IMG/VR virus record: IMGVR_UViG_2684622669_000016
Location: 1 to 38,086 of that record
Length of the DNA stretch: 38,086 nt
Origin: a virus
Taxonomy: Duplodnaviria; Heunggongvirae; Uroviricota; Caudoviricetes
Direction: 5' to 3' (one strand)
Shown here: piece after piece, positions 2,622 through 38,086 of the stretch
Position numbering within the stretch: the stretch's first letter is position 1
Layout: each line of letters starts with the position of its first letter
Notes under the pieces: generated by a model
The model's input: the letters and a program-made list of their open reading frames with translations, nothing else
Told to the model about the DNA's origin: nothing
The model's database searches: none
Position numbers and translations under genes: made by a program

Positions 2622-2733
2622 ACCTGAAGTTGCCCTGAGAATGAAATTTTTTTGCACAAGCGCAGAACTTTTCTTCGGGGCATCAGTCTTAATTAGTGCC
2701 ACTGCTTTTCTTTGATGTCCCCATTTTGTGGAG

Positions 2734-2776
2734 CCCATCAACCCCGCCATTTAGGTTCAAGGTTGATGGGTTTTTT
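2734..2776 (+). terminator. rho-independent terminator downstream of ybjL
   Basis: Perfect 10-bp stem cccatcaacc (2734-2743) / ggttgatggg (2761-2770) followed by TTTTTT (2771-2776). Confidence 0.55.
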
Positions 2777-2834
2777 GTTGCCTGAAATTTAAGCTATTTA
2801 AAATCATGATGTTAGAAACACTGTTTTTTAACGA

Positions 2835-24480: not shown

Positions 24481-26154
24481 TTAAGATTTATGGCTAAAGA
24501 GTATACCTGTAACAGAACGTTGATAGGCATCAAGCTTCTCTTGCCTCTGCTTAAATTTAGATTTGATATCACTAATACTCGGAATACCTATTACTCCAAG
24601 GCCTGCACTTAACGCCGCTAAAGTAGTATTGCCAGTCAGCGCTCCAGCAATTGCTATAGCACCATTTGCGATACATGGTAGGACATCCAGTCCGTAAATT
24701 CTCAATTTCTCTTTTTGGGCTTTTGCAAGAATCCTTTGATGTTCAATAAAAGCCCGGTCTACATTATCAATTACTTTTTGCGTTGTCCTCGAAAAGCTCT
24801 CTGCCGAAGAATTGATTAAAGAGTCAACACCATTTGATAAGATGGATCTTACATCCTCCATCAATTTGTTACGTCTCAACTCAATTATTTTATTGACCGG
24901 TACATTTCCTAACCATGAAAAACCATCTTGCATACCAGCAGATAACGCATGAACCATATGCAAATTTTTTAGTTCAATATCATTGACATCAAAATTAAGA
25001 GATTCGTACTCAATAAGCCAAGTATAATAGAGCCAAGATGTGTCTGCATTTATATATGGAGTACTACCAAGTTCTTGTGCATTACATTTTGCTGAATAGG
25101 CTTGCGGCATTCTTCCAATGCAGGAAAGGAAAACCTCCATTCCAGCATGATCACCAACAACATTACGTGATATTCTTTTTTTATCAGATAGTAGTTTTTC
25201 TAATTGAGTTTTTGGATTTAGCCCCCATGCTGTATCAAAAATAAGTCTATCTGCTCTCTTAATATTTTTAAGAACAGCATCAATATCATTCATCGAATAA
25301 CTAAAATCTTGAAATTCATCGTAGCTTTCGAACCGTCGATCATAGAGATATTGCGCATGAGTCAGAGCATAAGGCTCACAAAAACTCATCAAATTTTTTT
25401 TGCTCTCAGTTTCAAAATCTCTTCTATCCGGCAAAATTAATACTATTGCTGGCTCTATATCTTCAAGCGCTACTTCTTTATATGTCATACATGTTAGGAC
25501 ATGCTTCAGAAGTATCCTTGTAAACTCAGCCTTATCTGACTTTTCATAGAGACGACCGACTCTTAATATAGGACATGGAAGTGAAATAGTATCAACATAC
25601 AACCCTGCAATAGAGACAGCATTCTCATCAAATGCAGGAAATAAGTCACCAGAAAAATTAGCTTTAAACTGAGAACCATCCTGCAAATGTATTACACCAA
25701 TATCGGATGTTACCTGCCAAAACTCTATTACCTGATTATATAACTCAGGAAAAATATCTTCTATTTGCTTAACATATTCTTCTTGTTGAGAAAAAAAACT
25801 TGATGCTTTATGTGGCGTTGCATTAGTTTTTTTCATCAGATAAAACAACTCGCCAAAATTACTAAAAAGAATATTAAAGTAAGAACTTTGCAAGTCCTGA
25901 ATAGAGTATTTGTTTTTTATATCTTCTCTTTCTAAAAAGTGATTAACCGCTGCTCCCATAGCCCTTATTCTGCCATCAACAGTAGAAGGGTCAACTTTAC
26001 CATCCTGTCGCAGCCTTATTCTTTTAAAACTTTCAATAAAACCTTCTACAAGATGATGAGCTATTTTTAGTTTTCCCGCTTCCAGTTGTTGCTTAATGAG
26101 AAAAACACGCTCAGTTAAATCGTCTACATATTCCTCATCTTGATATTTTTCCAT
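24481..26154 (-). CDS. 557-aa protein of unknown function, AT-rich cargo gene (candidate anti-phage / exclusion gene)
   Basis: Long uninterrupted ORF, visibly AT-rich against the GC-rich structural genes; no recognisable motif by eye; C-terminal Gly/Ala-rich hydrophobic stretch. Confidence 0.8.
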   Translation of the reverse strand: MEKYQDEEYVDDLTERVFLIKQQLEAGKLKIAHHLVEGFIESFKRIRLRQDGKVDPSTVDGRIRAMGAAVNHFLEREDIKNKYSIQDLQSSYFNILFSNFGELFYLMKKTNATPHKASSFFSQQEEYVKQIEDIFPELYNQVIEFWQVTSDIGVIHLQDGSQFKANFSGDLFPAFDENAVSIAGLYVDTISLPCPILRVGRLYEKSDKAEFTRILLKHVLTCMTYKEVALEDIEPAIVLILPDRRDFETESKKNLMSFCEPYALTHAQYLYDRRFESYDEFQDFSYSMNDIDAVLKNIKRADRLIFDTAWGLNPKTQLEKLLSDKKRISRNVVGDHAGMEVFLSCIGRMPQAYSAKCNAQELGSTPYINADTSWLYYTWLIEYESLNFDVNDIELKNLHMVHALSAGMQDGFSWLGNVPVNKIIELRRNKLMEDVRSILSNGVDSLINSSAESFSRTTQKVIDNVDRAFIEHQRILAKAQKEKLRIYGLDVLPCIANGAIAIAGALTGNTTLAALSAGLGVIGIPSISDIKSKFKQRQEKLDAYQRSVTGILFSHKS

Positions 26155-26255
26155 AAACGCTCCATTAAAATATTTAATAATGCATATAAGAATAGTTAAT
26201 AATATTTACAGTAACTATATCACATTAGATCCAGATTGTTACACTGTTGCGCGCG

Positions 26256-26274
26256 CTCGTATCCCCGCCACGCC
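26256..26274 (-). other. candidate cos cohesive-end site
   Basis: Minus strand reads GGCGTGGCGGGGATACGAG, about 15/19 identical to the 186 cohesive end as recalled (GGCGTGGCGGGGAAAGCAT). Confidence 0.5.
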
Positions 26275-26544
26275 TGCCCGCTTTATGTAGTGGTTTTCAT
26301 GCACCTGCATGCTCTACGCAAAAGCCCGCCAGTTCTGGTGGGCCTTAGCAATAACGATCCTCAAACGATCATGCAATCTCATGCAGTATAGGCATGCACA
26401 ACAACTTACCTTAAGAAAAAACATCTGATATGCCCAACTGTTTCGTCTCTTTTCCAGTAGCTTGCTATGGCTTATCTTTAATGCAACTGTAATCGTGTAT
26501 GAAGATACAATCCCTACCAATCATAAAAATGAGGAACACAAAGA

Positions 26545-27285
26545 ATGACTGTGCACAAGCTCTCTGGTGCGTTTTTCCACGATATGCAGGTTGAGTGGCC
26601 CTGCCCTAACTGCAATCAGAAAACCCTACAGATCATTAAAGAAAGTTTCGTCTCGTATGACACACATGATACCCGAAAATTCCGCAGTGAAGATTGGTTT
26701 GAACCAGAAATGGATTCATCTATTTTCAGTTGCATGGCCCGCTGTTCAAGAATGCAATGTGGTGAAGTTGTGGCCTGTACTGGTAAGAGTGGATGGGAAC
26801 AAGGTTGGGATGAAGAAAGAAATGATATTGAGTACTATCAATGGCACAGACCTTTCACCTTTTACCCATCACTGCATCCTTTCGAAATACCTGAAAAATG
26901 CCCAGAAGAAATTACCGAACCGCTTGAAGCCTCATTTTCCATTTTCCTAATACAGCCTGGCGCAGCAGCAAACCTAATTCGAATTTCAGTTGAAAGAATG
27001 CTAACCGCTATGGATGTAGCTGAACGTAATGATAATGGCAAACGCATAACTCTACACCACCGTTTAGGGATGCTACCTGAATTATACGGATCGTTTTCAA
27101 GACCTCTTATGGCAATTAAATTTTTAGGAAATGCCGGAAGCCATACCTACGATGAAGTAAAAGTCAAAGACATTGAGGATGCTTTTGAGATTATGGAGTA
27201 CGTCGTCAATGACTTGTTCTCCGGTCGCAAAGAATCTGTCGAAGTATTGACGAAACGATTAAGTGAAAAATTCAAAGAAAACTGA
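26545..27285 (+). CDS. 246-aa protein: N-terminal Cys-rich zinc-ribbon-like region plus C-terminal DUF4145/HEPN-like domain (candidate abortive-infection effector)
   Basis: Strong SD (tgagga) before the ATG; CPNC…C…CSRMQC cysteine cluster; C-terminal …RITLHHRLG…IKFLGNAGSHTYDE… resembles the DUF4145 signature as recalled; AT-rich. Confidence 0.8.
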   Translation: MTVHKLSGAFFHDMQVEWPCPNCNQKTLQIIKESFVSYDTHDTRKFRSEDWFEPEMDSSIFSCMARCSRMQCGEVVACTGKSGWEQGWDEERNDIEYYQWHRPFTFYPSLHPFEIPEKCPEEITEPLEASFSIFLIQPGAAANLIRISVERMLTAMDVAERNDNGKRITLHHRLGMLPELYGSFSRPLMAIKFLGNAGSHTYDEVKVKDIEDAFEIMEYVVNDLFSGRKESVEVLTKRLSEKFKEN

Positions 27286-27413: not shown

Positions 27414-27647
27414 CTAATGCAGCCAGCTGTCGTCTTCCCACACCTTCTGCATAATTTTCATCACTTGTTTTCTTTCTTCGTCCAGTTGCAGTCCGGTCAG
27501 TTCCACACCGTTAGAGCTACCTTTGCGGATACGAATTACCGTTTTTGGATACAGGGGGCGCAGATTGCGGTAAAGCTCGGATTCAAGGGCATCCAGGATA
27601 GACTGGCTAATCTTCTGCTCTTTATCGATCATTATTTCAATGCGCAT
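27414..27647 (-). CDS. DinI-family protein (Tum C-terminal-domain-like)
   Basis: 77 aa from the ATG at 27647 (MRIEIMIDKEQKISQSILDALESELYRNL…WEDDSWL); matches the DinI fold pattern. Confidence 0.8.
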   Translation of the reverse strand: MRIEIMIDKEQKISQSILDALESELYRNLRPLYPKTVIRIRKGSSNGVELTGLQLDEERKQVMKIMQKVWEDDSWLH

Positions 27648-27657
27648 AAAAGTCACC

Positions 27658-27846
27658 TCAACTGATGACATCCATTGAGCGGTTGTATTCGTGGGTTCTG
27701 ATTTTTGCCATGAGTTCATCTGTTAGTTCAGAAACCCACTGCAAAGCCAGCCCCTTCTCTTCATCACTACACTCACTAGCCGCTACAAGCTTAAGAAAAA
27801 AATCAATGCGCTGGAGCTTCAAAGACTCCAAAAAATAGTCCTGCAT
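27658..27846 (-). CDS. 62-aa protein, first gene of the LexA-controlled operon (possible Tum N-terminal part)
   Basis: Strong SD (ggagg) before the ATG at 27846; LexA box and promoter directly upstream. Confidence 0.6.
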   Translation of the reverse strand: MQDYFLESLKLQRIDFFLKLVAASECSDEEKGLALQWVSELTDELMAKIRTHEYNRSMDVIS

Positions 27847-27887
27847 TTTTCCTCCTATGACACCACAAGCAATACTGTATGCATAAC

Positions 27888-27907
27888 CACTGTTTATATT
27901 TACAGTA
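27888..27907 (-). promoter_or_regulatory. LexA (SOS) box overlapping the promoter of the tum/dinI-like operon
   Basis: caCTGTttatatttACAGta, a perfect CTGT-N8-ACAG; promoter-like TTTACA and an AT-rich -10 just upstream on the minus strand. Confidence 0.7.
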
Positions 27908-32440: not shown

Positions 32441-32530
32441 GGATGCCAGCGTTTACCATCCTCACCCATGATCCAGCCGTGACCGTAGTGCATTGCCGGG
32501 CTTTGTTTTACCAGCAACGATGCAAATGAT
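32441..32530. repeat. direct repeat, copy A (90-bp block; 60-bp core 32471-32530)
   Basis: 60-bp core 58/60 identical to 33274-33333; a conserved ggatgcca lies 30 bp upstream in both copies. Confidence 0.65.
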
Positions 32531-32620
32531 TGTGCCGGGAATTTTTCTACACGCCCGGCGCGTGCCTCAGTGGTAGACTATTTGTGCTAACAATCATCTA
32601 CCCCTCAAAGGAGAAAACTG

Positions 32621-32710: not shown

Positions 32711-33169
32711 ATGACTAAACAAAGCTCCGAATACTTCCAATTGCACTACTGTTATTACCTTGAACTAATGACAGCAACGTTCCATGGTCGAGCTGATAAA
32801 TTAATGACAGCAATCCAACTTATAAGCGGAACAGCTGTATTTGCTAATACAGGTCTGGAATGGTTGTTCGCTTTTCCTGTTGTTGTAATCGCAACAATCC
32901 AACTTGTATGGCAACCAGCTATTATTGCGGAACGAGCAAGCGTACAAAGCCGACAATATGGTGAGTTGCTTTACGCCGAGGATGAATTGTCTCCACAGTT
33001 CATTGCACAAAAATTGAAAGCTTTGCATCACTCTGACTCCACAACATTCGGATCTTTGTTAAACCCAGCCTACAAAAGAGCTGCTATTGCCTGTGGTCGG
33101 GTTGACGATGTAAACCTCAGCTTCCAAGAAAAACTTTTCGCTTGGTTCGCAGGTTGTTTGCCGCGTTAA
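32711..33169 (+). CDS. 152-aa predicted membrane protein, opposite-strand cargo gene inside the early operon
   Basis: Two adjacent hydrophobic helices (…LISGTAVFANTGLEWLFAFPVVVIATIQLVWQPAIIA…); antiparallel to every neighbouring gene. Confidence 0.65.
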   Translation: MTKQSSEYFQLHYCYYLELMTATFHGRADKLMTAIQLISGTAVFANTGLEWLFAFPVVVIATIQLVWQPAIIAERASVQSRQYGELLYAEDELSPQFIAQKLKALHHSDSTTFGSLLNPAYKRAAIACGRVDDVNLSFQEKLFAWFAGCLPR

Positions 33170-33350
33170 CCATAAATCTTTGTAGGAATCGCTTTTTATT
33201 TCTTCCCCGGTAAGCCTGTTGCCGGGGTTGTAATTCAAAACTTGGATGCCACTTTTTCCCACAAGGTAAATAAATCCAGCCGTGACCGTAATGCATTGCC
33301 GGGCTTTGTTTTACCAGCAGCGATGCAAATGATGGTTCTTTCGTCAGCAT
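33117..33350 (-). CDS. hypothetical small protein just downstream of cII (77 aa from the ATG at 33350)
   Basis: GAGGTG SD after the cII stop; its 5' region coincides with repeat copy B. Confidence 0.4.
   Translation of the reverse strand: MLTKEPSFASLLVKQSPAMHYGHGWIYLPCGKKWHPSFELQPRQQAYRGRNKKRFLQRFMVNAANNLRTKRKVFLGS
33205..33227 (+). terminator. weak hairpin downstream of the 152-aa gene
   Basis: ccccgg / ccgggg stem around an 11-nt loop; poor T-tract. Confidence 0.25.
33244..33333. repeat. direct repeat, copy B (90-bp block; 60-bp core 33274-33333)
   Basis: Partner of 32441-32530. Confidence 0.65.
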
Positions 33351-33357
33351 AAGCACC

Positions 33358-33876
33358 TCACAGCAAACCAAATGAAGCACCGAGGCCAGTCACGGTATCA
33401 ACTGCACTCGCCATCGCAGGGTTAGCCTGTAAACGGGCCTGCAATGAAACAGCAGCCAACGCCATCAGTCGTGTTACAGAGTTAATGCTGCTGATAGCAT
33501 CACGACGGCCTGCACTGGTTTTTACATCGCCAGATACCGCGCCTGCAGCTACACGCCCGATCTCTGCTGTTGCACTCATGACGTAATGCGGCAGTTTCTC
33601 TTTTGCCACCTCATTAATCGGAACACATGGCAGGCAGTGAATCTGTGCCAGAAAACCATCTACCAGTGTTGAGTCTTCTGTCAGATCAGTAAGCAACCAA
33701 ATTTCTGGTGCGGTTAATAAATGAGGTTGAGCTGGATTCAGCTTGTTCCGCAGAATCTGCACATTCATACCTGCACGTTCTGCCAGTTGCACCAAGTTGT
33801 GGCGCAATGCAAATGCACGACAGGCTTCATCAAAATGTGGATGTTTGGAAACTTGGTAATCAAACATAGTCGACAC
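33358..33876 (-). CDS. cII: phage regulatory protein CII (186 CII-like)
   Basis: 172 aa; …[24 protein letters not shown]…[26 protein letters not shown]… matches the 186 CII family as recalled; follows the apl/cox-like gene. Confidence 0.7.
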
Positions 33877-33899
33877 TCCTGATGCATCCCAAAATGGAA

Positions 33900-34121
33900 C
33901 TAGTTGAATACAACATTGAAATCAGTAAGTGCATCAACGGTAAGAGCAGCAAGGTTGATCATTACCTTTTCTCTTTTCTTGTCTTTCCGAAGGCGATGGC
34001 GAGGGATACGACCATCAGCCAGCATATCGTTGATGGTGTCGATAGAAAGACCAGTAAGTTCGCTATAACGCTCAATTGTGACGTGTGGCGTATTCAGAGT
34101 TATTGAAATGTTAGGGGTCAT
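33900..34121 (-). CDS. Apl/Cox-like small DNA-binding protein (excisionase / lytic-switch regulator)
   Basis: 73 aa with an HTH-like segment; first gene of the operon divergent from cI. Confidence 0.6.
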
Positions 34122-34208
34122 GATGCAACATCTCCTATTGGCTTGTGGTGAGCCGGTATTAATCGTGACAAAACATCACAAAACGGAGAATAGGTTCACA
34201 TAAAGAAT

Positions 34209-35147
34209 ATGCCAACTCAAAAAATCACATTTCGCCATATTGAAGATAGTCTGAAAGCTATGGTCATGCAGAATCGTGGAGGGCAAAAAGTCATTGAGAG
34301 GATACTCAAGGCCTATGGTTTCAAATCACGCCAAGCCTTCTGTAAGCATCTTGGTATTTCACAAAGCACAATGGCTAATAGATATGCACGCGATACCTTC
34401 CCTGCTGATTGGGTTGTTATATGTTCAATGGAAACTGGCGCATCCCTAGAATGGCTGGCCTTTGGTTCTAACAATGCAGAAGAAAGTTCCCCCCCTTATG
34501 TGGAACAACATGATGAAACAGTCCCACATGAGGGGTTTAACAGCAACGCTCATCAATCATCCTTTAAGCGCCGCATTGAGAATCACATTGAGCTTACTAA
34601 CGGAGGAAAAGCCGCGATAGAGAGGATTGTTAATGCTTACGGGTTTAAAACCCGCCAAGCCTTAGCCGACCACCTTGGTATTTCAAAAAGCACATTAGCC
34701 ACACGATACATGCGAGATTCTTTCCCTGCGGATTGGGTGATTAAATGCGCATTAGAAACCAAAGCGGATCTCGCCTGGCTAGTTACAGGAATCGAAACAC
34801 CAAATAGTTCACAAGAAGAAAACACTGTAATTTTAAATAAGTTCAATTTGGTCAATGGCGTGCTTGTCGAGTCAGGTTTTTTATCCATGGATCGGTGTCT
34901 ACTTCCGAAGCAAGAAACTAGCAGCTTGATGTTTGTAAGCAATGGAGAAAAACATGTCATATGTGATAAAGAATTTCACCTAATTAGAGATGGAAAATGG
35001 TTAGTAGGAATTGACAATGAGTTATCTTTAAAAGAGTTAACTCGTTTACCTAAGAACAAAATTCTTGTTTCTGGTGGGAGTAAGGATTTTGAGTGTTCCA
35101 TTGAGGATATTCAAATTATAGCCAGCATTATCTTAACAATACAATAA
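34209..35147 (+). CDS. cI: CI-type immunity repressor with tandemly duplicated N-terminal DNA-binding domain
   Basis: 312 aa; two 186-CI-like units (…ERILKAYGFKSRQAFCKHLGISQSTMANRYARDTFPADWVVICSMETGASLEWL… and …ERIVNAYGFKTRQALADHLGISKSTLATRYMRDSFPADWVIKCALETKADLAWL…) followed by a C-terminal domain. Confidence 0.85.
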   Translation: MPTQKITFRHIEDSLKAMVMQNRGGQKVIERILKAYGFKSRQAFCKHLGISQSTMANRYARDTFPADWVVICSMETGASLEWLAFGSNNAEESSPPYVEQHDETVPHEGFNSNAHQSSFKRRIENHIELTNGGKAAIERIVNAYGFKTRQALADHLGISKSTLATRYMRDSFPADWVIKCALETKADLAWLVTGIETPNSSQEENTVILNKFNLVNGVLVESGFLSMDRCLLPKQETSSLMFVSNGEKHVICDKEFHLIRDGKWLVGIDNELSLKELTRLPKNKILVSGGSKDFECSIEDIQIIASIILTIQ

Positions 35148-35190
35148 CATTGCAGACATTACTTTTAAATACTTACTGGAGGAGTCTAAA

Positions 35191-36960
35191 ATGAATCATC
35201 ATCTTTCAAAGATTTCTATAAAAAACTTTAGATCTTGCAAAGATATTGATATCAATTTTTCTTCATTCACGCCTTTAATCGGTTACAACAATGCTGGTAA
35301 GTCAACGATTTTAAATGCTATTGAATGGCTTTTTAAGAAAAAACTTTTGTCCTCTGATGATTATACTAATCCAGATAACCCTATAGAAGTTATAGGTACA
35401 GTTAAGGGTATTACTGAAGATATTTTGTCAGCTTTAACAGAAGAAAACAGAACTAGAATTTCACCCTACATTATTGACGGGGTATTGATATTTAAGCGTC
35501 AACAGCCTGTTGGTGCTCAAAGTGCAAAAGACGTCAGATTATTAATTAAAAACCCAGAAAATAACGAATTCAGGACATCACCAACGGGTATTGAGAATGC
35601 GATAAAAGCTTTATTTCCAGACCCAATACGTATAGGTGCAATGGAAAATGCAGCGGATGATTCTTCAAAATCAAAAACAGGAACTACAATAGGTAAGTTG
35701 CTGGCAGAATTGAGTTGCAAAATAGAAGAGAAGCACACTCAAAGGATACTAAGCCATTTAAATGCCGTTAATAGAAGAATGACTGCAACCGGTAATAAAC
35801 GAATATCGGACCTCAATGATATTGATGATTCAATAAGTAGTAAAGTTGCTGATTTCTTCCCTGGGATAAGTTTAAAACTACACTTCGAACTCCCTGACTT
35901 CAAGGATATATTTAAATCAGGGACTGTAAAAGTATATGAAGATTCATTTCCCGGCATTGCTCGTGACTGTTCTTCTTATGGTCATGGCACACAGCGTTCG
36001 ATTCAGATGGCTCTAATAAGACATTTAGCTGATATAACCAACGGTGATGATATTAAAACAACTACTCTACTGTTAATAGATGAACCTGAGTTATATCTTC
36101 ACCCATTTGCTATCGAACAAATTAGAGAATCTCTAAAAACACTATCTCATCATGGATATCAAATAATTTTCTCTACCCATTCATCTCAAATGATTACCTC
36201 TGACTTAGCAAAAGACACTGTGTTAATCAGAAAAAACAGTCAGCGTGGCACTCATTGCAGATTAACATTAAAAGAAGCAGTCAATAAAGTAATCGAACAA
36301 CGACCAGCACAAGCAACCCATTTATTTTCATTAACACAGTCTTCAAAAGTTTTGTTTGCTAACAATGTAATACTAACAGAAGGTAAAACAGAGACTACTC
36401 TGCTCCCATTTATTTTTAACAAAGTTAAAAATAAAACATTAGGTCAGATGCAAATAGCACTAATTGAAACAGGGTCCGTTGAAAGTATATCTAAAACGAT
36501 GCAAATTCTAAATTCAATGGATATACCTACAAAAGCAATTGTTGATTTAGATTTTGCGTTCCGCGGTGCAATAAGGAACAACTTCTTAGAACATAATGAC
36601 GAGGATATTTTACGACTAAAAGAAATCTTGAGAAGTATGCATGCTAATGGAGAATGCACTCTCGATGGATCCGGTTTGCCTACAAAGGGTAGTAACACTA
36701 CCGCAGCTGAAGCATTTGCTATTATGTCTCAAAAGCCCGGCGCCAGAGAATTTTTGTCATCATTAGCCGCAAAACTGAGAAATGCAAATATTTGGATTTG
36801 GCTAAATGGTTCGATAGAAAACCATTTGGGTCTTACAGAAAAAAATGAATCAGTATGGGCTGATTTCAAAACAAAAGCAGATACACAACCTCTTTCAGAT
36901 ATCTGTGCAGATTTCGAAAGTATTGAGGCTTTAGTCGACTGGATTACCCCTGACGTATGA
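35191..36960 (+). CDS. old: OLD-family ATPase/Toprim nuclease (P2 Old homologue)
   Basis: 589 aa; Walker A GYNNAGKST; FRSCK, IDEPELYLHP and Toprim VILTEGKTE motifs; collinear with P2 Old as recalled; AT-rich; GGAGG SD. Confidence 0.85.
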   Translation: MNHHLSKISIKNFRSCKDIDINFSSFTPLIGYNNAGKSTILNAIEWLFKKKLLSSDDYTNPDNPIEVIGTVKGITEDILSALTEENRTRISPYIIDGVLIFKRQQPVGAQSAKDVRLLIKNPENNEFRTSPTGIENAIKALFPDPIRIGAMENAADDSSKSKTGTTIGKLLAELSCKIEEKHTQRILSHLNAVNRRMTATGNKRISDLNDIDDSISSKVADFFPGISLKLHFELPDFKDIFKSGTVKVYEDSFPGIARDCSSYGHGTQRSIQMALIRHLADITNGDDIKTTTLLLIDEPELYLHPFAIEQIRESLKTLSHHGYQIIFSTHSSQMITSDLAKDTVLIRKNSQRGTHCRLTLKEAVNKVIEQRPAQATHLFSLTQSSKVLFANNVILTEGKTETTLLPFIFNKVKNKTLGQMQIALIETGSVESISKTMQILNSMDIPTKAIVDLDFAFRGAIRNNFLEHNDEDILRLKEILRSMHANGECTLDGSGLPTKGSNTTAAEAFAIMSQKPGAREFLSSLAAKLRNANIWIWLNGSIENHLGLTEKNESVWADFKTKADTQPLSDICADFESIEALVDWITPDV

Positions 36961-36977
36961 TTTAATATTTACATACA

Positions 36978-36992
36978 TTGACCACTGGTCAA
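36978..36992. promoter_or_regulatory. perfect 15-bp palindrome TTGACCACTGGTCAA flanked by ACATACA direct repeats, upstream of int
   Basis: Seen directly in the sequence; function unknown (possible protein-binding site). Confidence 0.35.
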
Positions 36993-37008
36993 ACATACAG
37001 TTAAATTT

Positions 37009-37033
37009 AGCCCTCTGACATGAGGGCTTTTTT
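37009..37033 (+). terminator. rho-independent terminator after old that sequesters the int ribosome-binding site
   Basis: Stem agccctc (37009-37015) / gagggct (37022-37028), then TTTTT (37029-37033) running directly into the int ATG at 37034. Confidence 0.6.
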
Positions 37034-38086
37034 ATGGCAGTACGAAAACTCACCACAGGAAAATGGCTTTGCGAATGTTACCCCGCCGGACGAAGTGGGC
37101 GTCGTGTGCGTAAACAATTCGCCACCAAAGGCGAAGCACTGGCTTTTGAGCGTCACACGATGGAAGAAACCGAAGCAAAGCCCTGGCTGGGTGAATCAGT
37201 GGATCGTCGAACACTGAAAGACGTGGTTGAGCTATGGTTCAAACTACATGGTAAATCTCTGACAGCTGGGCAGCATGTCTATGACAAATTGCTGTTGATG
37301 GTTGACGCTCTGGGCAATCCTCTTGCAACCGATCTCACCTCTAAAATGTTTGCCCACTATCGAGATAAACGACTGACAGGCGAGATCTACTTCAGCGAGA
37401 AATGGAAGAAAGGAGCAAGCCCGGTCACCATTAACCTGGAGCAAAGCTATCTAAGTAGTGTTTTTAGCGAACTATCCCGTCTGGGCGAATGGTCGTATCC
37501 GAACCCACTGGAGAACATGCGAAAATTCACCATCGCAGAAAAAGAGATGGCATGGCTTACCCATGAGCAGATTGTTGAATTGCTGGCTGATTGCAAACGT
37601 CAGGACCCAATTCTGGCACTGGTAGTCAAGATATGCTTAAGCACAGGCGCACGCTGGCGAGAAGCAATAAATCTTACCCGTTCACAGGTGACTAAATACC
37701 GAATTACCTTTGTAAGAACGAAGGGGAAGAAAAACAGAAGCATCCCTATCAGTAAAGAGCTTTACGAAGAGATCATGGCGCTTGATGGTTTCAATTTCTT
37801 CACAGACTGCTATTTTCAATTTTTATCCGTGATGGAAAAAACGTCTATCGTGCTCCCTCGCGGTCAACTGACACACGTTCTGCGCCATACGTTTGCGGCG
37901 CATTTCATGATGTCGGGTGGAAATATCCTTGCTTTGCAAAAAATCCTCGGACATCACGATATAAAAATGACGATGCGTTACGCACATCTGGCACCGGATC
38001 ATCTGGAAACGGCGCTCCGTTTCAATCCTCTGGCAACGCTGCCAAGTGGCGACAAAGTGGCGGCAGCGGTTGGCATTACCCCGTAA
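37034..38086 (+). CDS. int: P2-type tyrosine integrase
   Basis: 350 aa; N-terminus and catalytic region (…LSTGARWREA…VLRHTFAAHFMMSGGNILALQKILGHHDIKMTMRYAHL…) resemble P2 Int. Confidence 0.9.
   Translation: MAVRKLTTGKWLCECYPAGRSGRRVRKQFATKGEALAFERHTMEETEAKPWLGESVDRRTLKDVVELWFKLHGKSLTAGQHVYDKLLLMVDALGNPLATDLTSKMFAHYRDKRLTGEIYFSEKWKKGASPVTINLEQSYLSSVFSELSRLGEWSYPNPLENMRKFTIAEKEMAWLTHEQIVELLADCKRQDPILALVVKICLSTGARWREAINLTRSQVTKYRITFVRTKGKKNRSIPISKELYEEIMALDGFNFFTDCYFQFLSVMEKTSIVLPRGQLTHVLRHTFAAHFMMSGGNILALQKILGHHDIKMTMRYAHLAPDHLETALRFNPLATLPSGDKVAAAVGITP
38047..38068. repeat. right prophage attachment core (attR): tggcgacaaagtggcggcagcg
   Basis: 21/22 identical direct repeat of 2835-2856; lies within the last codons of int. 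Confidence 0.6.

What the first reader, a model, noticed from the sequence alone, without database searches (positions are those of the whole stretch)
35191..36960. Old-family nuclease gene inserted between cI and int rather than at the cos-proximal locus
The 589-aa product carries the OLD hallmarks (Walker A GYNNAGKST, IDEPELYLHP, Toprim VILTEGKTE) and is collinear with P2 Old. In P2 old sits at the genome end next to cos; here it sits between the repressor and integrase genes with its own GGAGG SD and no terminator after cI, so it is probably co-transcribed with cI in the lysogen. Low GC marks it as cargo. The insertion also separates int from cI, and a terminator (37009-37033) now sits immediately before int.
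Basis: partly seen in the sequence, partly recalled or inferred. Interest (0 to 1): 0.6.

Follow-up and report, generated by a model that had tools for sequence, protein, structure and literature searches.

The report
OLD nuclease in prophage cI–int slot
An E. coli P2/186-like prophage carries an intact, divergent relative of the phage P2 Old anti-phage nuclease between its repressor and integrase genes, but that position is a regular and already described cargo slot for defence genes in this phage lineage, so the finding is real but ordinary.

Summary
ORF 35191-36960 (+) encodes a 589-aa Class 1 OLD protein. It matches the PADLOC 'Old' model at E=1e-234, is 38% identical and collinear with P2 Old, and its best fold match is Thermus OLD 6P74. 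Ten of the 11 residues shown to be essential in P2 Old are conserved; D541 is Ser here and Ala in most relatives. The gene lies between cI and int, has a GGAGG SD, has no terminator after cI, and is 35% GC.

The interpretation needs correction. This is not a one-off insertion. OLD homologues at 84, 77, 63 and 53% identity occupy the same slot in Citrobacter, Klebsiella and Serratia prophages. All 24 species-representative loci with int at least 69% identical have 0.4-3 kb of cargo on the cI strand between cI and int. That cargo includes PD-Lambda-1, HEC-01 and a KAP NTPase. Phage 186 itself has none. The hotspot is published (Rousset 2022; Egorov 2024; NAR 2026).

The hairpin before int belongs to a conserved int-upstream element, not to the OLD cassette. 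That element is present whatever the cargo. It also holds a promoter-like site with a predicted LexA box. The swapped low-GC module includes the cI C-terminal domain.

Verdict: a new member of a known kind, of modest interest.

The parts
34209..35147 (+). cI repressor gene, 312 aa, with two tandem Phage_CI_repr HTH domains and one Phage_CI_C domain
   Evidence: Pfam PF07022 with 2 stretches, E=1.6e-58, and PF16452 E=1.4e-22. Internal 158-nt direct repeat 34278-34435 / 34602-34759 at 70%.
34760..36966 (+). Variable low-GC module: cI C-terminal domain plus OLD. This is the segment that differs from E. coli and Klebsiella relatives carrying other cargo.
   Evidence: blastn homology to L016, L018 and L001 stops at 34759 and resumes at 36967-36973. 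GC is 0.352 overall, with cI CTD 0.353 and OLD 0.354, against 0.443 for the cI N-terminal part.
35178..35182 (+). GGAGG Shine-Dalgarno sequence of OLD, 8 nt before the ATG
35191..36960 (+). Class 1 OLD family (P2-Old-like) ABC ATPase-Toprim nuclease gene, 589 aa
35281..35304 (+). Walker A motif GYNNAGKS (K37)
   Evidence: Aligns with P2 Old K37. Invariant in 25 and 34 homologues.
36067..36105 (+). Walker B and D-loop, LLLIDEPELYLHP (D297, H304). The H-loop H330 is at 36178-36180.
   Evidence: Aligns with P2 D299, H306 and H332. Invariant.
36352..36843 (+). Toprim nuclease region: E397, K399, E401, D452, D454, S541 (P2 D541), E543, K551 (P2 K550)
   Evidence: Pfam OLD-like_TOPRIM over residues 388-454. 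Residue mapping. P2 residue list from PMC7049728 and bioRxiv 10.64898/2026.07.10.737580.
36967..37033 (+). Conserved int-upstream element, present regardless of cargo
36978..37007 (+). Promoter-like site TTGACC-N18-TAAATT. Its spacer (36984-37001, ACTGGTCAAACATACAGT) is a predicted LexA box.
   Evidence: Promoter scan. ACTG-N10-CAGT: 3 found in the window against 0.49 expected. CTG-N10-CAG sits 45-52 nt before the int ATG in 29 of 29 aligned loci.
37009..37033 (+). Hairpin AGCCCTC/GAGGGCT plus T-run (intrinsic-terminator-like). The 3' arm contains the SD-like GAGGG of int.
   Evidence: A hairpin is present in 29 of 29 loci, with at least 6 different stem sequences.
37034..38086 (+). Tyrosine integrase gene, 350 aa. 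Its 3' end runs across the attL core (38048-38068).
   Evidence: Pfam Int_N plus Phage_integrase. att repeat.
33900..34121 (-). Apl/Cox-like gene, divergent from cI. The cII gene is at 33358-33876 (-).
   Evidence: Annotation of relatives. Pfam Phage_CP76 for cII. A pR-like promoter lies on the - strand at 34215-34187.
24481..27285 (.). Cos-proximal (Q-A) hotspot, for contrast. It holds other low-GC cargo: a 557-aa ORF on the - strand and a 246-aa DUF4145 ORF on the + strand. There is no OLD.

Best explanation
The gene encodes a functional Class 1 OLD (P2-Old-like) ABC-ATPase/Toprim nuclease. It is carried as anti-phage cargo in the cI-int hotspot of a 186-type (CII/Fil/Tum) Peduoviridae prophage integrated downstream of rybB in E. 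coli.

Shown:
- Family membership, intact catalytic motifs, purifying selection and cargo status.
- The slot is variably filled with defence genes throughout this phage lineage.
- OLD has occupied it for a long time in several genera.

Inferred:
- OLD is transcribed with cI from the lysogenic promoter (the 186 pL/pE equivalents), so it is made in the lysogen.
- The transcript ends at the conserved hairpin and U-run just before int.
- In the lysogen the protein idles in an auto-inhibited oligomer. When a superinfecting phage replicates or disables RecBCD, the ATPase module releases the Toprim nuclease, which aborts the infection. The most likely route is tRNA anticodon-stem cleavage as in P2-OLD; the alternative is DNA nicking as in Vc OLD.
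- int is separately controlled by its own promoter, probably LexA-repressed, inside the conserved int-upstream element.
For: Family:
- PADLOC Old E=1.4e-234, full length. Pfam AAA_15 plus OLD-like_TOPRIM.
- 38% identity and collinear with P2 Old.
- K37, D297, H304, H330, E397, K399, E401, D452, D454, E543 and K551 are conserved and invariant in 25-34 homologues.
- AF2 model pLDDT 84.7. Best PDB fold hit is Ts OLD 6P74 at E=1.2e-22, followed by GajA.
- dN/dS is about 0.07 against the Citrobacter homologue.

Class 1: the neighbours are cI and int, with no helicase or reverse transcriptase.

Cargo and hotspot:
- GC 0.354.
- Relatives carry DUF4747 plus a partner, a 325-aa protein, or PD-Lambda-1 at the same place.
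- 24 of 24 loci with int at least 69% identical have 401-2967 nt of cargo whose first gene is on the cI strand, while 186-type loci have a 5-12 nt gap.
- Cargo hits PD-Lambda-1, PDC-M11A, PDC-S20/KAP NTPase, PDC-M18A and HEC-01.
- OLD homologues at 84, 77, 63 and 53% identity lie between cI and int in Citrobacter, Klebsiella and Serratia.

Operon: 43-nt gap, SD, no terminator and no usable promoter. The hairpin after the cargo is conserved.

Mechanism, from the literature: P2-OLD is a tRNase triggered in RecBCD-compromised or phage-replicating cells (PMC12445682; bioRxiv 10.64898/2026.07.10.737580). Both ATPase and nuclease residues are needed in vivo (PMC7049728).
Against: - No expression or phenotype data exist for this allele.
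- The P2 metal-B ligand D541 is Ser here and Ala in most of the subfamily. P2 D541A was the one partly active mutant, so metal-B geometry, and therefore substrate or chemistry, may differ.
- At 38% identity to P2 Old, the trigger and target cannot be transferred with confidence. Vc OLD shows that Class 1 enzymes can be RecBCD-independent DNA nickases.
- P2 old has its own mapped transcript starts, so an unrecognised promoter inside the AT-rich 3' end of cI cannot be excluded.
- AT-rich cargo may be silenced by H-NS.
- The allele is rare: 14 of 5426 complete E. coli genomes.
Confidence: 0.8

Rival explanations
1. One reading: a singular, recent insertion of an old gene into a previously contiguous cI-int operon, which displaced int and brought or created the terminator.
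For: In phage 186 the cI stop overlaps the int start with no cargo. OLD is low in GC. This allele occurs in only 14 E. coli genomes, at 99.6% identity or more.
Against: Every locus of this int lineage has cargo in the slot. OLD homologues at 84-53% identity, with saturated synonymous sites, occupy the same slot in other genera. Window 34614-38028 aligns as one continuous block with the Citrobacter locus. The hairpin and its flank are conserved next to unrelated cargo, with covarying stems.
Confidence: 0.05
2. OLD is an independent transcription unit with its own promoter, as P2 old is, and is not part of the cI operon.
For: The P2 old-tin mRNA has its own mapped starts. AT-rich DNA contains many weak promoter-like sites.
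Against: The intergenic gap is only 43 nt. The single + strand promoter-like site (35164-35192) ends on the start codon, so it could not supply the SD. Promoter-like sites are not enriched: 13 found against 11.6 expected. In relatives the first cargo gene starts 2-95 nt after cI on the same strand, and in L016 just 2 nt after the stop.
Confidence: 0.15
3. The protein is not a defence nuclease. Either it is a catalytically altered OLD because of D541S, or it serves the phage's own DNA transactions, such as replication or excision control.
For: The metal-B ligand is replaced. OLD homologues in archaea are reported to regulate replication (bioRxiv 10.64898/2026.07.10.737580). The gene sits beside int.
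Against: Ala or Ser at this position is the norm in 24 of 24 subfamily members, while all other catalytic residues are invariant. Purifying selection is strong. The slot is filled interchangeably with validated or candidate defence genes. Related homologues lie in defence islands next to Mrr and nSTAND genes.
Confidence: 0.1
4. The hairpin at 37009-37033 is not mainly a terminator. It is a translational operator that occludes the int SD, or a stability element, and int is expressed by read-through of the cI-OLD transcript.
For: The 3' arm always carries the SD-like G-rich run. The Yersinia and Serratia versions keep the hairpin but lack the T-run. Int must be made during lysogenisation, when LexA is intact.
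Against: Most versions have 5-7 T directly after a GC-rich stem, which is the canonical intrinsic terminator form. The promoter-like site with the LexA box is invariant just upstream. The two roles are not mutually exclusive.
Confidence: 0.3

Closest known systems
P2 Old (Class 1 OLD; NP_046798)
   Same: Same length (589 vs 586 aa), collinear, 38% identity. Same Walker A/B, D-loop and H-loop, Toprim E-G-K-T-E and D-x-D motifs, and distal E and K residues. Single-gene system carried by a Peduoviridae prophage.
   Different: Location is the cI-int slot with no promoter of its own, whereas P2 old is cos-proximal with its own transcript starts and tin downstream. D541 is replaced by Ser. At 62% sequence divergence, the trigger (Gam, RecBCD, ori hairpins) and the target (tRNA-Thr UGU) are untested.
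Vc OLD (Vibrio cholerae PDE) and Ts OLD (6P74)
   Same: Class 1 architecture. Ts OLD is the best solved-structure match. Vc OLD likewise sits in an integrase-bearing mobile element.
   Different: Ts OLD shares only about 17% identity. Vc OLD is under 25% identical to P2 OLD and is a RecBCD-independent DNA nickase.
Defence hotspots of P2-like prophages
   Same: A variable, low-GC, defence-rich interval between conserved core genes. The interval near cI and int has been reported as a Vibrio K139-like cI-int hotspot (PMC9122126), as a 'third hotspot between a tail protein and CI' (bioRxiv 10.1101/2024.10.15.618418), and as 'between integrase and primase, 8% of P2 systems' (PMC13586616).
   Different: Those papers do not, in the text read here, resolve the slot to cI-int in Enterobacterales. 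They also do not describe OLD as an occupant, the breakpoint inside cI, or the conserved int-upstream element.
Phage 186 lysogenic operon (pL/pE, then cI, then int)
   Same: Same switch genes (cII, apl, cI with Phage_CI_repr and CI_C domains), same order and orientation, and a Tum/DinI-like SOS module with a LexA box.
   Different: In 186 the cI stop overlaps the int start. Here 1.9 kb of cargo, a hairpin terminator and a separate promoter-like site with a LexA box intervene, and cI has a duplicated HTH domain.
LexA-repressed recombinase promoters (integron intI; 186 p95-tum)
   Same: A CTG-N10-CAG palindrome fills the spacer of a sigma-70-like promoter directly upstream of a tyrosine recombinase gene. 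SOS control of intI is established (PMC3108266, listed).
   Different: This is prediction only. The window's box has CTGG rather than CTGT and matches 13 of 20 consensus positions. No binding or expression data exist.

Membership tests
OLD family nuclease, Class 1 (P2-Old-like) | N-terminal ABC ATPase with Walker A Lys, Walker B Asp, D-loop His and H-loop His | tested here: met
   K37, D297, H304 and H330 align with P2 K37, D299, H306 and H332 and are invariant in homologues. Pfam AAA_15 and AAA_21.
OLD family nuclease, Class 1 (P2-Old-like) | C-terminal Toprim domain with metal-A ligands (E, DxD) and the EGKTE glutamates and lysine | tested here: met
   E397, K399, E401, D452 and D454 align with P2 E398, K400, E402, D453 and D455. 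Pfam OLD-like_TOPRIM E=1.5e-16.
OLD family nuclease, Class 1 (P2-Old-like) | Metal-B ligands (P2 D541, E543) and distal catalytic Lys (P2 K550) | tested here: inconclusive
   E543 and K551 are conserved and invariant. D541 is Ser here and Ala in most of the 24 subfamily members. P2 D541A keeps partial activity.
OLD family nuclease, Class 1 (P2-Old-like) | Full-length collinearity with P2 Old or the family profile | tested here: met
   PADLOC Old covers residues 3-585 against model positions 2-578 of 578, E=1.4e-234. tblastn to P2 old covers 99% of the query.
OLD family nuclease, Class 1 (P2-Old-like) | Three-domain fold (ATPase, dimerisation insert, Toprim) | tested here: met
   AF2 model pLDDT 84.7, pTM 0.77. 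Best Foldseek hit is 6P74 Ts OLD, E=1.2e-22, TM 0.56/0.63.
OLD family nuclease, Class 1 (P2-Old-like) | Stand-alone gene: no adjacent UvrD-like helicase (Class 2), no retron RT (Class 3), no split ATPase and Toprim (Class 4) | tested here: met
   The flanking genes are cI and int. The same holds in L005-L010.
OLD family nuclease, Class 1 (P2-Old-like) | Phenotype: phage exclusion, lethality in recBC hosts, ATP-dependent nuclease or tRNase activity | not testable with these tools
   Needs experiments.
Prophage defence hotspot (P2-like, cI-int) | Conserved flanks with variable content among related elements | tested here: met
   Flanks are 84-97% identical while the content is unrelated. There are at least 12 different cargo sets in 24 loci.
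Prophage defence hotspot (P2-like, cI-int) | Cargo enriched in known or candidate defence genes | tested here: met
   PD-Lambda-1, PDC-M11A, PDC-S20/KAP NTPase, PDC-M18A, HEC-01 and a HEPN-like protein, plus Old.
Intrinsic terminator | GC-rich hairpin followed by a U-run | tested here: met
   A 7-bp stem with 5 GC pairs plus T5-6. Folds at -13.3 kcal/mol. Termination in vivo is not testable here.
LexA-regulated (SOS) promoter | CTGT-N8-ACAG palindrome overlapping promoter elements, conserved in orthologous positions | tested here: inconclusive
   The window has CTGG-N8-ACAG exactly filling the spacer between the -35 and -10 hexamers. The position is conserved in 29 of 29 loci, most with canonical CTGT...ACAG. 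LexA binding was not tested.

The most novel reading that the evidence does not exclude
In this Peduoviridae lineage the cI-int cargo slot may be part of a rewired lysogeny module. cI and the defence cargo would form one lysogenic operon closed by a hairpin terminator. int would have its own LexA-repressed promoter whose start site (about 37014) falls inside the 5' arm of that hairpin. SOS-induced int transcripts would then escape both termination and SD occlusion, while read-through transcripts would not. In addition, the exchangeable cassette begins inside cI, so the repressor's oligomerisation domain is swapped together with the defence gene.
Probability: 0.4. Interest if true: 0.55.

Novelty: new member of a known kind. 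Interest (0 to 1): 0.3.

Why it matters
It adds a divergent P2-Old-like allele to the short list of Class 1 OLD proteins, of which only P2 OLD and Vc OLD have been tested for defence. The allele is 38% identical to P2 Old and carries Ser/Ala at the P2 D541 metal-B position. Testing it could show whether tRNA cleavage and RecBCD surveillance are general to the clade.

It also sharpens the map of a minor P2-like hotspot to a precise cI(CTD)-cargo-hairpin-int architecture. This can be used to mine cargo: the flank 'ACATTGACCACTG-N10-CAGTTAAAT' followed by a hairpin is a good anchor. The predicted SOS control of int would matter for understanding induction and excision of these very common Enterobacterales prophages. 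None of this overturns current views.

Tried and rejected
- A promoter for OLD in the cI-OLD gap. Only one weak site was found and it ends on the ATG. Rejected.
- The terminator as part of the OLD cassette. Rejected, because it is found next to DUF4747, PD-Lambda-1 and other cargo.
- Loss of Toprim catalytic residues. Rejected: the pairwise alignment wrongly suggested K550 to E, and the multiple alignment shows an invariant Lys at 551.
- OLD among the 77 int-homologue loci from species-representative genomes. None was found, so OLD is a rare occupant of the slot.
- Formal covariation counting on the MAFFT alignment of the hairpin. Abandoned because arms of different hairpin types are aligned out of register. 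Per-sequence folding was used instead.
- NCBIfam. No model reached its cut-off.
- Rfam. Nothing in the OLD-int region; the only hit is RybB at 2701-2779. There are no tRNAs.
- Literature searches for LexA-regulated int in P2-like phages, and in Nilsson 2011 (PMC3448106), found nothing relevant.
- The Vc OLD sequence could not be obtained, so identity to it was not measured.
Full report
**Observation.** The ORF at 35191-36960 (+) is real. It has an ATG start, encodes 589 aa, and contains GYNNAGKST, IDEPELYLHP and VILTEGKTE. A GGAGG at 35178-35182 lies 8 nt before the ATG, and only 43 nt separate it from the cI stop at 35147. The consensus scan finds no + strand terminator between cI and OLD. 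The only one in 33800-38086 is AGCCCTC-TGACAT-GAGGGCT plus a T-run at 37009-37033, abutting the int ATG at 37034. OLD is 35.4% GC, against 55% for the structural genes.

**Genome context.** The window is a P2/186-like prophage in reversed P2 orientation. It runs from the host gene ybjL and the RybB sRNA through D...O, P and Q (terminase and portal). Then come a low-GC cos-proximal cargo block, A, Dam, cII, an apl-like gene, cI, OLD and int. It is bounded by a 21-nt att repeat at 2836-2856 and 38048-38068. In P2, old lies next to cosR. Here that interval holds other cargo.

**What the gene is.**
- Pfam gives AAA_15/AAA_21 plus OLD-like_TOPRIM.
- The PADLOC 'Old' model matches end to end at E=1.4e-234, far above GajA, AriA and the others.
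- P2 Old is the only close phage-database relative, at 36.9% over 99% of the query. A global alignment gives 38% identity over 576 columns.
- Schiltz et al. (PMC7049728) showed that P2 K37, D299, H306, H332, E398, E402, D453, D455, D541, E543 and K550 are needed for killing recBC cells, with D541A only partly defective. Here the equivalents are K37, D297, H304, H330, E397, E401, D452, D454, S541, E543 and K551. A 25-sequence alignment shows all of them invariant except position 541, which is Ala in most relatives and Ser here. K399 matches P2 K400 of the catalytic pocket.
- An AlphaFold model (pLDDT 84.7) has Thermus OLD 6P74 as its best solved-structure match (E=1.2e-22), followed by GajA and the retron Eco8 effectors. 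Sequence search of the PDB agrees.
- dN/dS against the Citrobacter homologue is about 0.07.
- With cI and int as neighbours it is Class 1.

**Is the position special?** No.
- Relatives with nearly identical flanks carry other genes at the same place. These are a DUF4747 protein plus a membrane partner (E. coli H15 and CAVP766; Klebsiella phage 4LV2017), a 325-aa protein (SA53-3), and a 558-aa DUF4041/T5orf172 protein (phages vB_EcoM-813R9 and KP12).
- I surveyed 77 int-homologue loci from species-representative genomes. All 24 loci with int at least 69% identical and a detectable cI have 401-2967 nt between the two genes. The first gene in that interval is always on the cI strand. The smallest cargo is a 63-aa Cys-rich secreted peptide.
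- Loci with 186-type int (about 50-57% identity) mostly have a 5-12 nt gap, and in 186 itself the cI stop overlaps the int start.
- The cargo includes PD-Lambda-1, PDC-M11A, PDC-S20/KAP NTPase, PDC-M18A, HEC-01 and a HEPN-like protein. This is therefore a defence hotspot.
- It is already published in coarser form: a cI-int hotspot in Vibrio K139-like phages (PMC9122126), a 'third hotspot' next to CI in P2-like phages (bioRxiv 10.1101/2024.10.15.618418), and 8% of P2 defence systems lying between int and primase (PMC13586616).

**Is OLD a newcomer there?** No. The nearest homologues all lie between cI and int of 186-like prophages. They are 84% identical in Citrobacter freundii, 77% and 53% in Klebsiella michiganensis, and 63% in Serratia. 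Synonymous sites are saturated between them. The window aligns to the Citrobacter locus as one continuous block from 34614 to 38028. More distant homologues sit next to integrases in other elements, including a Pseudomonas Pf-like prophage and Vibrio islands. This particular allele is rare. It occurs in 14 of 5426 complete E. coli genomes, always in this context, and is annotated 'ATP-dependent nuclease'. None of the 77 surveyed loci has an OLD.

**Boundaries.** Against E. coli and Klebsiella relatives with other cargo, homology stops at 34759, inside cI after the second HTH domain. It resumes at 36967-36973, 7-13 nt after the OLD stop. The cI C-terminal domain has the same GC as OLD (0.353 vs 0.354), against 0.443 for the N-terminal part. 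The exchangeable unit is therefore cI-CTD plus cargo, not cargo alone.

**The terminator.** The 65 nt before int are conserved whatever the cargo.
- They contain ACATTGAC(C), a -35-like hexamer, and then CTG-N10-CAG. This is mostly CTGT-N8-ACAG with an AT-rich spacer, which is the E. coli LexA-box core. Then come a TAAAT -10-like hexamer, a hairpin and the int ATG.
- The palindrome is present 45-52 nt upstream of the ATG in 29 of 29 aligned loci. The hairpin is also present in all 29 (-7.8 to -20.3 kcal/mol), with at least six different stem sequences. The Yersinia and Serratia versions lack the T-run.
- In the window the box (36984-37001) exactly fills the 18-nt spacer of the scanned promoter TTGACC/TAAATT.
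- The only other AT-rich ACTG-N10-CAGT in the window (27889-27906) precedes the Tum/DinI-like genes, the homologue of the 186 SOS promoter p95. Chance expectation for this pattern is 0.49 per window.
- A transcript starting about 7 nt after the -10 hexamer (about 37014) would lack the 5' arm of the hairpin. RNA folded from 37014 shows no hairpin (z=0.18), whereas the read-through RNA folds it (z=-2.9).
- The hairpin is therefore a feature of the int side, not a consequence of the OLD insertion. My inference is that it closes the cI-cargo operon and occludes the int SD, while a LexA-controlled promoter supplies int on induction. This is untested.

**How it most likely works.** OLD is made in the lysogen from the cI transcript. 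This is inferred from the short gap, the SD, the shared strand, the lack of a terminator and the lack of a usable promoter. By analogy with P2-OLD it would be an auto-inhibited oligomer whose ABC ATPase senses aberrant DNA, phage replication or loss of RecBCD. It would then release the Toprim nuclease to cleave tRNA anticodon stems and abort infection (PMC12445682; bioRxiv 10.64898/2026.07.10.737580). DNA nicking as in Vc OLD is the alternative (PMC12392090). The D541-to-Ser/Ala change in the whole subfamily leaves room for different chemistry.

**Verdict.** This is a new, divergent member of a known defence family in a known, if little characterised, prophage hotspot. The by-products of the analysis are more interesting than the finding itself: the int-upstream SOS-box and hairpin element, the breakpoint inside cI, and the duplicated HTH domain in cI.

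Noticed in passing
window 36967-37033: A conserved int-upstream element: a -35-like TTGACC, a predicted LexA box (ACTGGTCAAACATACAGT) filling the spacer, a -10-like TAAATT, then a hairpin with a T-run whose 3' arm holds the int SD. It is present in 29 of 29 related loci regardless of cargo, and the hairpin stems covary. This suggests SOS-controlled int expression that bypasses the terminator.
   Followed up: partly
window 34209-35147 (repeat 34278-34435 / 34602-34759): The cI repressor has two tandem Phage_CI_repr HTH domains (312 aa, against 192 aa in phage 186). The same form occurs in Klebsiella phage 4LV2017 and many E. coli and Klebsiella prophages, while the Citrobacter and Serratia OLD-bearing phages have the single-HTH form. 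The consequence for operator recognition is unknown.
   Followed up: partly
window 34760-35147: The variable segment begins inside cI. The cI C-terminal (oligomerisation) domain has the same GC as OLD (0.353) and changes together with the cargo among relatives.
   Followed up: partly
window 24481-27285: The canonical cos-proximal (Q-A) hotspot is also occupied. It holds a 557-aa ORF on the - strand (only a weak PADLOC DitB hit, no Pfam) and a 246-aa DUF4145 protein (weak PD-T7-4 hit), at GC 0.38. The prophage therefore carries at least two cargo islands.
   Followed up: partly
window 27414-27906 (- strand): A canonical LexA box, TACTGTAAATATAAACAGTG (27889-27906), lies upstream of a small ORF and a DinI-domain ORF (27414-27719). 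This looks like the counterpart of the 186 p95-tum SOS antirepressor module.
   Followed up: partly
window 2701-2779; 2836-2856; 38048-38068: A full-length RybB sRNA gene (Rfam 106.5 bits) lies 57 nt from a 21-nt att repeat. The second copy of the repeat lies inside the last 39 nt of the int ORF. The prophage is therefore integrated just downstream of rybB, and the int C-terminus is encoded across attL.
   Followed up: partly
window 32471-32533 and 33274-33336: A 63-nt direct repeat (95% identical) brackets a + strand 152-aa ORF (32711-33169) of unknown function, lying antisense within the early lytic operon. A 152-aa + strand ORF is called at the corresponding position of the Citrobacter prophage L005 (3855-4313). 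It may be a small moron.
   Followed up: no
L013 5001-6761 (Pseudomonas aeruginosa): A 54%-identical OLD homologue lies between a small + strand gene pair (89 and 232 aa, possibly a repressor) and a 615-aa integrase. An excisionase-like HTH_17 gene is divergent from them, within what looks like a Pf-type filamentous prophage. This is the same repressor-cargo-int layout in an unrelated phage type.
   Followed up: no
L005 8862-9269; L021 6621-6812: The Citrobacter OLD prophage has an extra 135-aa ORF between int and the att-like sequence, which corresponds to the int-att hotspot of the NAR 2026 paper. The smallest cI-int cargo seen is a 63-aa Cys-rich secreted peptide, in an Escherichia sp. genome.
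   Followed up: no
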